Shown here piece by piece: positions 7,118 through 10,998 of a DNA stretch of 64,000 nucleotides (position 1 is its first letter; each line of letters opens with the position of its first letter). Location: positions 12,907-76,906 of the forward strand of contig CAZWBB010000002.1 of the NCBI GenBank assembly GCA_964632045.1, read 5' to 3'. Under the pieces are notes generated by a model that ran no database searches, had not been told where the DNA came from, and was given only the letters and a program-made list of their open reading frames with translations. A program made the translations under genes and the position numbers. The DNA is from an uncultured Methanosarcinales archaeon (GTDB lineage Archaea; Nanobdellota; Nanobdellia; Woesearchaeales; GW2011-AR9).

Positions 7118-8572
7118 TTAATCATCCTGTATCTTCATCTTCGGATTTCCGTAGGGGAGTAGTGGATTAAGCAATTGTAATTTCTGGTCCATGTAAGAAA
7201 TATCTTCCTGGCTGAAGTGTTCTTTATAACCTCCCACTATTCCACGTCTCATCTTGTAGCTCTGTCTATCATTTGGATCCACAGCTTGTAGTCGGTGGTC
7301 TCCTTTGAATCTATTTCCTTTCTCCATAGCCAGCATATTCTTGAATGAGCTGTTTTCAACGGCTTTGTCGATGATTTCGTCGCTTATTGATATCCCTAGA
7401 AAATCTACCACTTTCCGTAATTCACGGCTTGGGTCATTGTGCAAATCTTCGTAAGTGATAAAGACAAAATCATCTTTCCTTTTTTGCATCTCGGCAGTCC
7501 AGAGATTCATGAACCCGATTGCCTGCTTGAGTGTGGATTCTTCTCTAATAAAAGAGGAGATGCCTTTCTGATAACGAAAGTTACGTCGTCTAGTCCATTC
7601 AAAGTAGAATGAGGCCATCACATCGCGTGGGTCCCTGGCCAGAAAGATTATTTTCTTGTTCCTGAACTTTCTCTCGATCTCCAGAGATCTTGGTCTTAAC
7701 TTTTTGCTTATTGCAGTTCTGGGGTCGGTAGCAATGTTGGGAAGGGATTTATCTCCAAGAGTTGTCTTGTAAAGATCAAGGTTTAATTTTGTTCCTTTTT
7801 TGAGGGATATGGTCTGAGCCAGCAACATCCTTATCCAAGTTCGTCCACTTTTTGGGAAGGATATTATATATGCATCAGCAATTTTACTGACAGCATAGTG
7901 ATAGGATTTCTGAACCAGTGCGGCGGTTAATATGCGACTGCGAATTTTTCCAATGGTTTTATTGTTGACTGGAGTTGGGTTATCACTATGCCTTCCCCCA
8001 GACTTTTCATTATGTTTTTTGCTTACAGGTTTCCCGCTTGGGATGACCGTAGACTGATATTGCATGATGTGGGTAAGAATCTGTTGCACATTTTCCTCCT
8101 CTTTATTTGATAGTGTATCAATTTTCAAGTCTGGATTTAAAGGCATTTGGTAAGGATTACTTTCAGAAAGTCCGATGTAATTCTCGATTTCTCCCCTCAG
8201 AGCTTTCTTGTACAGCCCTTTTGGGTCTCTCCGGATACATTCTACTAGTGGGGTGTTTATGAACAGTTCGGTGAACTCTGTACCGATAATTGAACGAGCC
8301 ATCTGTCGGTCCTCTGTATAAGGAGAAATGATAGGGACCAGGATGACATCAAATTCAGCTGATTTTTCTTTTGCCATCTCAGCAATCAACTGGTTGTTCT
8401 TTCTAATATCCTCACGAGAGAATCCAAGAGTTGTATGTAATGTTTCCCTAACCACATCACCATCTATAATCGAAACTCTCTTTCCCTGGTTCTCCAGCCT
8501 TTCCTTCACTTGAAGAGCTAAGGTGGTTTTTCCTGAGCCACTGAGGCCCGTGAACCATACTGTTTGGCCTAT
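7118..8572 (-). CDS. APS kinase (CysC)-sulfotransferase fusion; start non-canonical (ATA 8572) or via readthrough
   Basis: The ORF-track start (GTG 8509) omits the in-frame P-loop GQTVWFTGLSGSGKTT at about 8569-8522. DGDVVR and RDPKGLY are CysC motifs. The C-terminal domain has the sulfotransferase PAPS-binding motifs FPKSGRTW, RDPRDVMAS and RRGIVG. Confidence 0.85.
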   Translation of the reverse strand: MGQTVWFTGLSGSGKTTLALQVKERLENQGKRVSIIDGDVVRETLHTTLGFSREDIRKNNQLIAEMAKEKSAEFDVILVPIISPYTEDRQMARSIIGTEFTELFINTPLVECIRRDPKGLYKKALRGEIENYIGLSESNPYQMPLNPDLKIDTLSNKEEENVQQILTHIMQYQSTVIPSGKPVSKKHNEKSGGRHSDNPTPVNNKTIGKIRSRILTAALVQKSYHYAVSKIADAYIISFPKSGRTWIRMLLAQTISLKKGTKLNLDLYKTTLGDKSLPNIATDPRTAISKKLRPRSLEIERKFRNKKIIFLARDPRDVMASFYFEWTRRRNFRYQKGISSFIREESTLKQAIGFMNLWTAEMQKRKDDFVFITYEDLHNDPSRELRKVVDFLGISISDEIIDKAVENSSFKNMLAMEKGNRFKGDHRLQAVDPNDRQSYKMRRGIVGGYKEHFSQEDISYMDQKLQLLNPLLPYGNPKMKIQDD

Positions 8573-8578
8573 CTTATG

Positions 8579-10828
8579 TCACCTCACAAACACTTCTTCT
8601 CCTTTTTTTATCGCTTCCACAATAATCTTTGATATCTCAGGATGCATGAACCACTCTGGTAGGAACTCTCCTTTGTTTAATGTTTCTCTTGCCTGGGTGC
8701 CGCTGATGTGCATCTTTTCAAGTTCCTCTCCCTCCTCTGTTTCCGGCCCATGGATGTATTCTTTCTTCTTGTTTGAATAGAATACATTGCCGAATCTTAC
8801 CGGTTTAATTCCTATCTCTGGGAACTTGTCAAATATCTGGTGGGAGGCATTAGGGTGGTAGTAGTTGCCCACTCCTGTATGGTCTCTCCCCACAATAAAA
8901 TGGCTGCAGCCAAAATTCTTCCGGCAAAGAGCTGTGAAAATTGCTTCTCTTGGCCCAGCATATCTGGAAAAAGTTGAGAAAGTGGCAAATACGACCTTGT
9001 TCTTAGGATAGATATCCTTCACCATTTTCTCATAACTTTGGATGATATACTTTGAATTGAAATCCCCAGATTTTTTCTTGCCGATTATCGGGTGGACGAA
9101 CAGCCCATCACAGTTCTCTTTTTCCATCGCCTGAAGCTGGATGAATTCGTGACCTTTGTGGATAACATTCCTCGTATGGAAACCAACTACTTTTACCCAC
9201 CCTCGGTCTTCAAAAAGTCTTCTTACTTGTTTTGGAGCAAGCTCATATTCTTTGTAGGAGGAATCGTTTCTTTTTAGCAGGTCAATCTTACCTCCTAACA
9301 AAACAGGCTTCATCTCTGTAACCATTTTGACTCCGGGATGGTTTTGATCATTGGTGCAATAGAGTTTGTTGGCCATCTCTGTTTTGTCGAAATGATACCT
9401 GTCTTCAACATGCATGATAGCCATGATTTTGTCATTCTCATCAGTAAGAGCCACATCATCACCAACAGAAACCTTCATCTCCTCGGTAATATCAAGCACT
9501 AAGGGGATGGGCCAGACAATCCCATTGCTTAACCTAAGTTCATCCAACACTCCTTGGAAATCATCTCTACACATAAATCCTTCTAGCGGGCTGAAAGTGC
9601 CGATGGCAATCTGTTCGATATCCATCAGTTGTTCTTTTGTTAACTGGATTTTTGGAAAGCTACCGATCCCTTCCGGTAATGAGCCGATGAACCTGTCTAT
9701 CAGTTTTCCTCCATGGGGTTCGATCAGCGAATCAGATTCAAGATCTTCAGAAAGATAGTTCATATTGTCAATGCCTTGGAGCAGTTTTGAATGTTCAATC
9801 AGCTTGTTCATCATATTTATGCATCTCATGGGATACTTGCCGATGGCGGTCTCTGCTGACAAGATGAGGCCATCCGCTCCATCTAGTATAGTATTGATTA
9901 CGTCGTTAACTTCTGCTCTTGTGGGTTTCTTCTGTTTAATCATAGTCTCAAGAAGATTAGTCGCTACGAAAACGGGTGTTCCACTTTCTTTAGCTTTCTT
10001 GAGGATGATTTTCTGAATGAGGGGTACTTTCTCTACAGGTACTTCCTTACTCAGATCGCCTCGATCTAACAGGATACTATCTGACTTCTTGATAATATTG
10101 TCAATATCCCTGAGCGAATCCCGTGCTTCTACTTTTGAGATGATGTGCATGGCATTATTGGTCACCCTTCTCACTTCATCAATATCTTCTCCTTTTCGGA
10201 CAAAGGATACAGCAATGTGGCCTACTCCTTCGCTCAGACCGATGCGGATGGATTCTTTATCTTTCTCTGAAAGAACAGGAAGCTGGAAGTTGCTCTTTGC
10301 CGCAGACACTATAACTGTTGCTTTTTTATTTCCAAGATTTCCACTGGAGACGATCCTAGCTTGGATATATCCCTCTTTGATTGTGGAAACGTCGGACACT
10401 TTGAATATCAAAGTATCAAAATCTACAAAAATCAGATCACCGGGTTTCAATTGCTGCAAAATTGGGGGGGGCGTTAGACAGATTTTCTCTTTGTTGCCAA
10501 TTATTGGTGTATTGTAAACTCGTACGACATTTCCTTCATCAAACTGAATCTCATTTTTCTCAAGACTACCAGTCCGAATTTGAGACCCTTCAGTGTCGAT
10601 AATGAAAGGTATATTTGCTGCTTTTGCAAGATGGATGAAATGTCTTAAGTCTTCGGTGGAAGAATGGGACATATTTATTCGTACAAAATCAACTCCTTTG
10701 TCCTTGATTTTCTTAATATCAGCTTCAATGCTGGTAGCTGGACCCAGAGTCACAATTATTTTTGGTGTCATTTCACTCTTTTTTTGTCTATTATGACGTA
10801 CCTCACTGCCTACAGTAGGATTTTTCAC
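8579..10828 (-). CDS. Pyruvate kinase (barrel + B domain)-ATP sulfurylase (Sat) fusion; start GTG 10828 or ATG 10771
   Basis: PK motifs KIIVTLGP, RINMSH, SKVE, RGDL, PTRAEVND, LSAETAIGKYP, then Sat motifs PHGGKL, HTRNVIHKGHE, YAGPREA, FIVGRDH, ISGTQAR, in one uninterrupted frame. Confidence 0.92.
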   Translation of the reverse strand: MKNPTVGSEVRHNRQKKSEMTPKIIVTLGPATSIEADIKKIKDKGVDFVRINMSHSSTEDLRHFIHLAKAANIPFIIDTEGSQIRTGSLEKNEIQFDEGNVVRVYNTPIIGNKEKICLTPPPILQQLKPGDLIFVDFDTLIFKVSDVSTIKEGYIQARIVSSGNLGNKKATVIVSAAKSNFQLPVLSEKDKESIRIGLSEGVGHIAVSFVRKGEDIDEVRRVTNNAMHIISKVEARDSLRDIDNIIKKSDSILLDRGDLSKEVPVEKVPLIQKIILKKAKESGTPVFVATNLLETMIKQKKPTRAEVNDVINTILDGADGLILSAETAIGKYPMRCINMMNKLIEHSKLLQGIDNMNYLSEDLESDSLIEPHGGKLIDRFIGSLPEGIGSFPKIQLTKEQLMDIEQIAIGTFSPLEGFMCRDDFQGVLDELRLSNGIVWPIPLVLDITEEMKVSVGDDVALTDENDKIMAIMHVEDRYHFDKTEMANKLYCTNDQNHPGVKMVTEMKPVLLGGKIDLLKRNDSSYKEYELAPKQVRRLFEDRGWVKVVGFHTRNVIHKGHEFIQLQAMEKENCDGLFVHPIIGKKKSGDFNSKYIIQSYEKMVKDIYPKNKVVFATFSTFSRYAGPREAIFTALCRKNFGCSHFIVGRDHTGVGNYYHPNASHQIFDKFPEIGIKPVRFGNVFYSNKKKEYIHGPETEEGEELEKMHISGTQARETLNKGEFLPEWFMHPEISKIIVEAIKKGEEVFVR

Positions 10829-10998
10829 TGTGTCAAGCTGCTTAAAACCTTTTTAAAAACGTTGTGGAAGATAGGTATTGATGAGTAACTCCAAAAATGG
10901 TTTGGATTTCTTCGGCAATGTCAATTAAAGTGTTTAATTGTTTAATAATTAATATAGATGGAGTCTATGTTGTTCATTCTGGACAGCACTTTAGATTG

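What the first reader, a model, noticed from the sequence alone, without database searches (positions are those of the whole stretch)
8507..8590. APS kinase gene has no canonical start and is in frame with PK-Sat across one TGA
Seen on the minus strand: ...TTT GTG AGG TGA CAT AAG ATA GGC CAA ACA GTA TGG TTC ACG GGC CTC AGT GGC TCA GGA AAA ACC (FVR*HKIGQTVWFTGLSGSGKT). The essential P-loop lies between the TGA (8581-8579) and the first GTG (8509), with no in-frame ATG/GTG/TTG before it. Option 1: initiation at ATA (8572), 6 nt after an SD-like GAGGTGA, similar to RBS spacing elsewhere here. Option 2: UGA readthrough gives a roughly 1200-aa PK-Sat-CysC-sulfotransferase polyprotein; the spacing resembles known Sat-CysC fusions. 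Option 3: a recent ATG->ATA change or nonsense mutation.
Basis: partly seen in the sequence, partly recalled or inferred. Interest (0 to 1): 0.65.

Follow-up and report, generated by a model that had tools for sequence, protein, structure and literature searches.

The report
APS kinase gene starting at ATA
In a small uncultivated (Woesearchaeota/DPANN) archaeon, the APS-kinase/sulfotransferase gene has ATA where its relatives have the ATG start, six bases after the normal stop of the upstream gene. It is a real single-lineage start-codon change and there is no evidence of a designed read-through polyprotein.

Summary
On the minus strand, PK-Sat ends at TGA (8581-8579). In the same frame, with no ATG/GTG/TTG before the P-loop, comes an intact APS kinase-sulfotransferase ORF.

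- **Not an assembly error:** two other assemblies from other samples, which differ elsewhere by 1-2 SNPs, carry the identical junction.
- **TGA is the ordinary stop of PK-Sat:** same-family relatives also end ...GEEVFVR-TGA.
- **ATA (8572-8570) sits where relatives start:** 12 of 14 short-N-terminus CysC homologues begin M-G-x-V-x-W; the window reads I-G-Q-T-V-W.
- **The junction is a normal one for this genome:** GAGGTGA lies 6 nt upstream, a typical SD spacing here, and about a dozen other gene pairs use the same "stop inside GGTGA, then ATG" layout.
- **No sign of decay in CysC:** it deviates at 1 of 38 conserved columns, the median for homologues.

Best reading (about 0.5): near-cognate AUA initiation, helped by the SD and by ribosomes terminating on PK-Sat.

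Rivals:
- very recent start loss, with a second CysC elsewhere in the genome;
- UGA-C read-through giving a 1,216-aa fusion. The linker length would be normal, but this layout recurs in none of 400 class genomes and no stimulatory RNA structure was found.

The parts
8579..10771 (-). PK-Sat gene (truncated pyruvate-kinase barrel + PUA_2 + ATP sulfurylase), 730 aa from ATG 10771, including its stop TGA 8581-8579
   Evidence: Pfam and NCBIfam hits. The 730-aa product is a called gene in another assembly (P0101). Relatives start similarly (MAKKTEIIVTLGP etc.).
8579..8581 (-). TGA, the natural stop codon of PK-Sat, followed by C
   Evidence: Same-family PK-Sat genes end at the same place...GEEVFVR-TGA in G004 and G010, with the last 21 nt identical in G010. 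C at +4 is the least used context after stops in this genome: 94 of 687 TGA stops, 13.7% against 21.4% C in the genome.
8579..8585 (-). GAGGTGA, a Shine-Dalgarno-like motif that contains the PK-Sat stop codon
   Evidence: GAGG/GGTGA motifs are enriched 4-8 nt upstream of starts in this genome. About a dozen gene pairs have the upstream TGA inside GGTGA and an ATG 1-7 nt later, e.g. C26 gaaggTGAataagATG. The same codons (GTG AGG TGA) also end PK-Sat in G010, where no gene follows, so the motif is partly a by-product of coding.
8570..8572 (-). ATA, the proposed start codon of CysC-sulfotransferase, 6 nt after the stop
   Evidence: It aligns with the ATG of relatives' CysC: MGKVVWFTG (G010), MTKILWFTG (G015), MGVVIWFTG (L021). 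Twelve of 14 short-N-terminus homologues have M at -5 from W, mostly followed by G as here.
8525..8548 (-). P-loop GLSGSGKT of APS kinase, upstream of the first canonical start
   Evidence: Translation; APS_kinase profile matched from position 2.
8507..8509 (-). GTG used by gene callers as the start (463-aa product lacking the P-loop)
   Evidence: the ORF listing; called genes P0121/P0240 of 463 aa. No SD motif can be seen upstream in the sequence.
8117..8569 (-). APS kinase (CysC) domain
   Evidence: PF01583 1.3e-48 and TIGR00455 5.2e-51. It deviates at 1 of 38 columns that are >=90% conserved, which equals the median of 207 homologues.
7181..7876 (-). Sulfotransferase domain (PKSGRTW and RDPRDV PAPS-binding motifs)
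   Evidence: PF00685 7.5e-30. Stand-alone homologues of 270-275 aa at up to 60% identity.
7118..8572 (-). Whole CysC-sulfotransferase ORF from ATA to TAA (484 aa)

Best explanation
These are two separate genes at a tightly coupled operon junction, not a broken fusion. PK-Sat terminates at its ordinary TGA. The CysC-sulfotransferase gene begins 6 nt later at AUA, which descends from the family's ATG start (M-G-x-V-x-W) through a G->A change. That change is present in all three available, near-identical assemblies of this lineage.

Shown:
- the sequence itself;
- its presence in three assemblies;
- the positional homology of ATA with relatives' ATG;
- the ancestral position of the stop;
- SD use and spacing in this genome;
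- the intactness of both domains.

Inferred:
- the initiator tRNA pairs with AUA as a near-cognate codon;
- it is held in place by the 7-nt GAGGUGA motif 6 nt upstream;
- it is fed by ribosomes that have just terminated on PK-Sat (termination-reinitiation);
- this yields a separate protein of about 55 kDa at a lower level than an AUG would give;
- a minor amount of UGA-C read-through fusion may be made alongside.
For: - **Junction:** confirmed and identical in L016 and L022, which carry other SNPs.
- **Stop position:** same-family PK-Sat genes stop at the same residue, EEVFVR*.
- **Start position:** relatives' CysC start with ATG exactly at the ATA position, followed by Gly. In L021 the layout is TAA + 7 nt + ATG GGA.
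- **SD use:** SD motifs are enriched 4-8 nt before starts, and GAGGTGA/AGGTGA at 6 nt is a modal spacing. Recurrent TGA-in-GGTGA junctions are followed by ATG.
- **Accessibility:** the region around the SD and ATA is predicted unpaired.
- **No decay:** the CysC domain deviates at 1 of 38 conserved columns, the median for homologues. The ST motifs are intact.
- **Literature:**
  - termination-reinitiation works in archaea at very short distances only (PMC10666635);
  - AUA initiates at about 1-2% of AUG in E. coli (10.1101/063800);
  - about 30% of putative alternative initiation sites in H. volcanii Ribo-seq were near-cognate codons (PMC7261190).
Against: - There is no expression, N-terminal or Ribo-seq evidence.
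- Established archaeal start codons are AUG, GUG and UUG only (PMC7531240).
- The ATA is seen in one near-clonal lineage only. No relative shares it, so conservation cannot argue for function.
- The other SD+ATA candidates in this genome all have a nearby ATG, so there is no sign that this organism uses ATA starts generally.
- The GAGGTGA motif is also present at the end of PK-Sat in G010, where no gene follows, so it was not necessarily selected as an SD.
- A second CysC with an ATG start exists on contig C5, so loss of this one might be tolerated.
Confidence: 0.5

Rival explanations
1. Very recent start-codon loss, making this a nascent pseudogene. ATG->ATA silenced the CysC-sulfotransferase gene, or at least its kinase domain, and too little time has passed for further lesions. 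PAPS would be supplied by the second CysC on contig C5. At most a P-loop-less product from GTG 8509 or an internal ATG would be made.
For: - No canonical start precedes the P-loop.
- The ATA is confined to one near-clonal lineage: three assemblies differ by at most 2 SNPs in 3-5.6 kb.
- A second CysC with an ATG start lies in another sulfotransferase cluster at C5:35883-36476.
- CysC next to PK-Sat is decaying in a relative: it is truncated to 110 aa in L021.
- Other close relatives have replaced it with an AAA_33-type kinase.
Against: - The 484 codons are open, with full-length domain matches, and conserved-column deviations are no higher than in homologues.
- The ATA keeps an ideal SD and spacing.
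- GTG 8509 has no SD, and starting there would delete the P-loop and first strand.
- The allele appears in samples from different projects.
Confidence: 0.28
2. UGA read-through is the main route. A near-cognate tRNA decodes UGA-C at 8581-8579, and the ribosome continues into CysC-ST. The product is a 1,216-aa PK-Sat-CysC-sulfotransferase enzyme, an evolutionary intermediate on the way to the single-ORF PK-Sat-CysC fusions common in DPANN and CPR.
For: - The two ORFs are in frame, with only two codons between TGA and ATA.
- The resulting linker (10 residues from EVF to W) falls in the mode (10-13) of 113 natural fusions, and is colinear with NCBIfam bifunctional model PRK05537.
- Fused and split states interchanged at least 7 times (at least 4 forced by supported branches) in the PK-Sat tree, and the window's 100%-supported clade holds 5 split and 3 fused members.
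- C at +4 is the least-used stop context here. From my own knowledge, UGA-C is the weakest termination signal in E. coli and in eukaryotes.
Against: - Being in frame has a 1-in-3 chance expectation.
- No stimulatory structure downstream (z = -0.43) and no Rfam element.
- No tRNA-Sec or UCA suppressor was found, although the MAG is incomplete.
- TGA is the commonest genuine stop, and 94 other long ORFs end in TGA-C.
- Among 400 other genomes of the class, none has Sat and CysC joined across an in-frame stop.
- The stop is at the ancestral PK-Sat terminus.
Confidence: 0.15
3. Sequencing or assembly error: the true sequence has ATG at 8572-8570, or a sense codon at 8581-8579.
Against: Three assemblies (the window's contig, JGI 3300009374 and ENA ERZ23499040) have different contig ends and different SNPs, yet share the identical junction.
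Confidence: 0.04

Closest known systems
Genes with near-cognate start codons behind a strong SD (bacterial infC AUU; NCBI table 11 lists ATA/ATT/ATC/CTG; E. coli AUA about 1-2% of AUG, 10.1101/063800)
   Same: An essential N-terminal motif lies upstream of any canonical start. A near-cognate codon sits at the orthologous Met position, with a strong SD at normal spacing.
   Different: The host is an archaeon, where only AUG/GUG/UUG are established starts (PMC7531240). The ATA is not conserved in any other species, so no selective or regulatory role can be inferred.
Translational coupling by termination-reinitiation at overlapping or closely spaced gene pairs in Haloferax volcanii and E. coli (PMC6728339, PMC10666635)
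   Same: The genes are co-directional, with the stop 6 nt before the restart codon and the SD inside the 3' end of the upstream gene. The encoded enzymes act consecutively in one pathway.
   Different: The restart codon is AUA, not AUG/GUG. Typical coupled pairs overlap by 4 or 1 nt. Nothing has been tested for this organism.
Single-ORF PK-Sat-CysC fusion proteins of DPANN archaea and CPR bacteria (about 905-950 aa; e.g. Ca. Woesearchaeota SI075_bin52, 933 aa, L025/P0001; P0032, 913 aa)
   Same: Same domain order and a comparable Sat-CysC linker length. The window's PK-Sat falls in a clade that contains such fusions.
   Different: The window has a TGA between Sat and CysC, at the position where split relatives stop. 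Its CysC carries an extra C-terminal sulfotransferase, a combination found only once more, at 28% identity (P0161).
Bifunctional sulfate adenylyltransferase/adenylylsulfate kinase (NCBIfam NF004040, PRK05537)
   Same: Sat followed directly by CysC, colinear with the model: Sat to position 388, CysC from position 393.
   Different: Both halves score far below the model's whole-protein cut-off (295 and 154 bits against 669), and they are not one ORF.

Membership tests
Gene with a non-canonical (near-cognate) start codon | Conserved, functionally required residues are encoded upstream of the first ATG/GTG/TTG | tested here: met
   The P-loop (8548-8525) lies upstream of GTG 8509, and the APS_kinase profile is matched from position 2.
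Gene with a non-canonical (near-cognate) start codon | The near-cognate codon aligns with the start Met of orthologues | tested here: met
   ATA is at -5 from W, as is the ATG in 12 of 14 short-N-terminus homologues and in G010, G015 and L021.
Gene with a non-canonical (near-cognate) start codon | Ribosome-binding site at the spacing used by the organism | tested here: met
   GAGGTGA + 6 nt. Genome-wide enrichment of GAGG/GGTGA at 4-8 nt, and analogous junctions with ATG.
Gene with a non-canonical (near-cognate) start codon | The non-canonical codon is conserved across related species | tested here: not met
   It occurs only in three near-identical assemblies. No same-genus genome is held, all relatives examined have ATG or a fusion, and the metagenome scan found no further relatives.
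Gene with a non-canonical (near-cognate) start codon | Direct evidence of initiation (N-terminal peptide, Ribo-seq initiation peak) | not testable with these tools
Programmed stop-codon read-through / recoding | In-frame downstream ORF that encodes a functional domain | tested here: met
   484 open codons with CysC and ST domains.
Programmed stop-codon read-through / recoding | Stop codon and frame conserved in relatives | tested here: not met
   Among 400 other class genomes, none has a Sat-to-CysC match across an in-frame stop. Relatives are either fused without a stop or split out of frame.
Programmed stop-codon read-through / recoding | Stimulatory RNA element (hairpin, pseudoknot or SECIS) downstream | tested here: not met
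   Fold z-score -0.43, and no Rfam match at E<=1 on the gene.
Programmed stop-codon read-through / recoding | Dedicated decoding machinery (tRNA-Sec or suppressor tRNA), or reassigned code | tested here: inconclusive
   None was found by ARAGORN, but the MAG is 89% complete with an incomplete tRNA set. The code is standard.
Single-ORF PK-Sat-CysC fusion | One uninterrupted reading frame across Sat and CysC | tested here: not met
   TGA at 8581-8579 in three assemblies.
Single-ORF PK-Sat-CysC fusion | Domain order and linker length | tested here: met
   10 residues from EVF to W, against a mode of 10-13 in 113 fusions.
Termination-reinitiation coupled gene pair | Co-directional genes that overlap or are separated by a very short distance | tested here: met
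   +6 nt between the stop and ATA. In H. volcanii, +13 nt already costs 40-60% of coupling.
Termination-reinitiation coupled gene pair | Canonical restart codon | tested here: not met
   ATA.
Pseudogene | Disabling lesions or relaxed constraint in the gene body | tested here: not met
   No frameshift or internal stop. It deviates at 1 of 38 conserved columns, the median of 207 homologues.

The most novel reading that the evidence does not exclude
The locus may be a living intermediate of gene fusion. The downstream gene has already lost its start codon, and the upstream UGA-C stop is leaky. CysC-sulfotransferase would then be made mainly as a 1,216-aa PK-Sat-CysC-sulfotransferase read-through protein. 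That would be a four-domain, self-contained 'sulfate to sulfated glycan' enzyme in a DPANN archaeon. It would show how the PK-Sat-CysC fusions common in DPANN and CPR arise.
Probability: 0.13. Interest if true: 0.6.

Novelty: new member of a known kind. Interest (0 to 1): 0.3.

Why it matters
- **Annotation:** public gene calls start this gene at GTG 8509 and so cut off the ATP-binding P-loop. The product should be read from 8572.
- **Biology:** if AUA initiation is real, it adds a case of SD-backed, near-cognate initiation at a coupled junction in an archaeal group (DPANN) where nothing is known experimentally about start-codon choice.
- **Evolution:** the locus sits between the split and fused states of a gene pair (PK-Sat and CysC) that has switched state repeatedly in DPANN and CPR. 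That makes it a convenient natural construct for testing how such switches pass through viable intermediates.
- **Caveat:** as it stands this is a single-lineage point change with no expression evidence, so the claim is modest.

Tried and rejected
- **Alternative genetic code (TGA as sense):** rejected. TGA ends 687 of 1601 long ORFs, and coding density is normal under table 11.
- **Selenocysteine:** rejected.
  - No tRNA-Sec was found.
  - No hairpin lies downstream.
  - The codon falls in a non-conserved linker.
- **Nonsense mutation in an ancestral fusion:** disfavoured, because same-family PK-Sat genes stop at the same residue. The tree cannot exclude a fused ancestor, since the window's clade is mixed.
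- **Start in another frame with a frameshift:**
  - The only nearby canonical start is GTG at 8582-8580, which overlaps the stop (GTGA) and opens a 2-codon ORF ending at TAA 8576-8574.
  - I saw no slippery sequence by eye. This is not a computed test.
- **Genome-wide use of ATA starts:** I searched SD + 3-9 nt + codon + long ORF. ATA candidates are no more frequent than background codons once nearby ATGs are considered, and all inspected candidates have an ATG a few codons on.
- **Closer relatives carrying the CysC-ST fusion:**
  - The metagenome scan found only a 28%-identity hit.
  - The protein search found one other CysC+ST protein, at 28% identity.
  - No same-genus genome is held.
- **16S anti-SD:** the MAG has no SSU rRNA, so SD use was inferred from motif enrichment instead.
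Full report
**1. The observation.**
- On the minus strand the window reads ...GAA GAA GTG TTT GTG AGG TGA CAT AAG ATA GGC CAA ACA GTA TGG TTC ACG GGC CTC AGT GGC TCA GGA AAA ACC....
- Translation of 10900-7118 gives one frame with a single internal stop.
- Upstream is a 730-aa protein with a pyruvate-kinase barrel, a PUA_2 domain and ATP sulfurylase.
- Downstream is a full-length APS kinase (Pfam profile 2-152 of 152) followed by a Sulfotransfer_1 domain.
- The ORF listing puts the first canonical start of the downstream ORF at GTG 8509, after the P-loop GLSGSGKT at 8548-8525.
- The only table-11 alternative start in between is ATA at 8572-8570.

**2. Real sequence or artefact?**
- The genome (2.2 Mb, 79 contigs, 89% complete) uses the standard code. 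TGA is the commonest stop of long ORFs, at 687 of 1601.
- A 19.7-kb contig of JGI metagenome 3300009374 (L016) covers the junction, as does a 3.06-kb scaffold of ENA ERZ23499040 (L022). They have different contig ends.
- They differ from the window by 1 SNP (in 5,628 b) and 2 SNPs (in 3,060 b).
- At GTGAGGTGACATAAGATAGGC they are identical to the window.
- An assembly error is therefore unlikely. The three are, however, one near-clonal lineage.

**3. Who is it?**
- The window carries an STT3/AglB oligosaccharyltransferase and many glycosyltransferases.
- A same-family genome (G010) is PCXY01000005.1, 'Candidatus Woesearchaeota archaeon CG10_..._45_16'. Other close hits are named Woesearchaeota or Pacearchaeota.
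- Relatives have genomes of 0.5-1.7 Mb.
- This is a DPANN archaeon. The two genes lie in a surface-glycan locus, so the likely role is PAPS supply and glycan sulfation.

**4. What the relatives show.**
- Stop position:
  - Same-family PK-Sat genes end at the same place as the window: ...GEEVFVR-TGA in G004 and G010.
  - In G010 the last 21 nt (GAAGAAGTGTTTGTGAGGTGA) are identical to the window, although no gene follows there.
  - Other relatives end one or two residues later: KE*, RE*, KN*, K*, Q*, KG*.
  - The TGA is thus the ordinary PK-Sat stop, not a fresh nonsense mutation.
- Start position:
  - CysC genes of relatives start with ATG five codons before the conserved Trp.
  - Examples are MGKVVWFTG (G010), MTKILWFTG (G015) and MGVVIWFTG (Pacearchaeota L021). 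In L021 the layout is PK-Sat TAA + 7 nt + ATG.
  - Among database homologues with a short N-terminus, 12 of 14 start at exactly -5, mostly as M-G.
  - The window reads I-G-Q-T-V-W-F-T-G, so ATA occupies the ancestral ATG position and is followed by the same Gly.
- Fused forms:
  - Single-ORF PK-Sat-CysC proteins (about 905-950 aa) are common in DPANN and CPR. One is in the window's own clade (L025/P0001, 933 aa).
  - In a quick ML tree of 61 PK-Sat sequences, the window falls in a 100%-supported clade of five split and three fused members.
  - The fused/split state changes at least seven times, at least four of them forced by supported branches.
  - Some fusions keep an internal 'MG.VIW', a relic of a former start.
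- Uniqueness of the layout:
  - In 400 other genomes of the class, no genome has Sat and CysC joined across an in-frame stop.
  - Four are fused without a stop. The rest are split out of frame or placed elsewhere.

**5. The junction as a translation signal.**
- GAGG, AGGT, GGTG and GGTGA are enriched 4-8 nt upstream of predicted starts in this genome. For AGGTGA and GAGGTGA the modal gaps are 4 and 6 nt.
- The window has GAGGTGA + 6 nt + ATA.
- About a dozen other gene pairs place the upstream gene's TGA inside GGTGA, with the next gene's ATG 1-7 nt later. Examples are C26 gaaggTGAataagATG and C25 agaggTGAggggATG.
- The window junction is the same architecture, with ATA in place of ATG.
- The RNA around it shows no special structure (z = -0.43) and the SD/ATA stretch is predicted unpaired. 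No Rfam family matches.
- C at +4 is the least used context after all three stops: TGA-C is 13.7% of TGA stops against 21.4% C in the genome. That fits a weak termination context, but 94 other long ORFs share it.

**6. Is the gene decaying?**
- The 484 codons from ATA are open.
- The CysC domain deviates at one of 38 columns that are >=90% conserved among 207 homologues. That equals the median for those homologues.
- The sulfotransferase keeps its PKSGRTW and RDPRDV motifs.
- So the gene is either still translated or the start change is very recent.
- A second CysC with an ATG start lies in another sulfotransferase cluster on contig C5, so loss could be tolerated.
- Relatives show turnover at this position:
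  - L021 has a truncated CysC.
  - P0114, P0115 and G004 carry an AAA_33-type kinase after PK-Sat instead.

**7. Is ATA a general start codon here?**
- A scan of SD + 3-9 nt + codon + long ORF found ATA candidates at a rate like TTG and GTG and slightly above background.
- Every inspected candidate has an ATG a few codons downstream, which explains it.
- No unusual initiator-like or suppressor tRNA was found, but the tRNA set is incomplete.
- The CysC case is therefore a singleton in this genome.

**8. Mechanism.**
- Best reading, about 0.5: AUA initiation at a coupled junction.
  - In H. volcanii and E. coli, reinitiation by terminating ribosomes works only over very short distances; +13 nt already costs 40-60% (PMC10666635). 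Here the distance is +6 nt.
  - AUA supports about 1-2% of AUG-level initiation in E. coli (10.1101/063800).
  - In H. volcanii Ribo-seq, about 30% of putative alternative initiation sites were near-cognate codons, though unvalidated (PMC7261190).
  - Established archaeal starts are AUG, GUG and UUG (PMC7531240).
- Rivals:
  - recent start loss (0.28);
  - read-through of UGA-C giving a 1,216-aa four-domain protein whose 10-residue linker is normal for natural fusions (0.15);
  - sequencing or assembly error (0.04).
- AUA initiation and read-through could both contribute at the per-cent level. Nothing here separates them.

**9. Earlier notes of this scan.**
- Notes on the same genome call it a DPANN archaeon and describe the PK-Sat and CysC-ST fusions. 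My results agree.
- Notes on other genomes report SD-backed AUA, CUG or ACG starts at coupled junctions in several uncultivated archaeal groups.
- Those are unchecked leads. They raise the prior for AUA initiation slightly.
- They differ from this case, because there the odd codon was conserved across relatives and here it is not.

**10. Verdict.**
- The ATA-start / ATG->ATA reading is supported. The nonsense-mutation and error readings are not.
- The polyprotein reading is possible but unsupported.
- This is a new member of a known kind (a near-cognate start at a coupled junction, or a just-lost start). Interest is modest, with a practical annotation correction: start at 8572, not 8509.

Noticed in passing
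window 8574-8582 (minus strand): A two-codon mini-ORF, GTG ACA TAA, starts in a GTGA overlap with the PK-Sat stop and ends 1 nt before the ATA. It could act as a relay for terminating ribosomes, or it could be chance.
   Followed up: no
window 7118-8572: The CysC + sulfotransferase fusion is rare. In the 5.8-billion-protein search, only one other protein with both domains appeared (P0161, 478 aa, 28% identity). The nearest CysC relatives are fused to a CysQ-like Inositol_P domain, and the nearest sulfotransferases stand alone at 270-275 aa.
   Followed up: partly
G000 contig C5:35093-37240: There is a second sulfation cluster. It holds a stand-alone CysC (197 aa, ATG start, unusual P-loop GLPCSGKS) flanked by two paralogous sulfotransferase-like genes (..LLSTQRSGSHLL..). 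A short run of N is masked nearby, at about 38.2 kb.
   Followed up: partly
L017 5705-6271; L018 5753-6304; L005 2262-2828: In the closest split relatives, PK-Sat is followed, often with an ATGA overlap, by a 183-192-aa AAA_33/Zeta_toxin-like P-loop kinase instead of CysC. After that come a methyltransferase, a sulfotransferase and a CysQ-like gene. This may be a non-orthologous APS kinase.
   Followed up: no
L021 5716-6048 (Ca. Pacearchaeota GCA_018221305.1): The CysC directly after PK-Sat has a normal ATG and P-loop, but it diverges after GFSRED and ends at 110 aa. It looks like a truncated or decaying copy.
   Followed up: no
P0001-P0120, tree: A truncated pyruvate-kinase barrel fused to ATP sulfurylase is widespread in both CPR bacteria and DPANN archaea. 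CysC is gained or lost as a third domain at least 7 times in 61 sequences. There are also larger variants: P0011 (1680 aa, with PHP and phosphodiesterase domains) and P0116 (NTP_transferase-PK-Sat).
   Followed up: partly
whole genome G000: C is under-represented at +4 after all three stop codons (9-14% against 21% in the genome). This suggests that stop-context selection resembles that known for eRF1 and RF2.
   Followed up: no
window 10840-10860 (minus strand): A TTTTTAAAAA stretch lies about 80 nt upstream of the PK-Sat ATG and is a possible TATA box for the two-gene operon.
   Followed up: no
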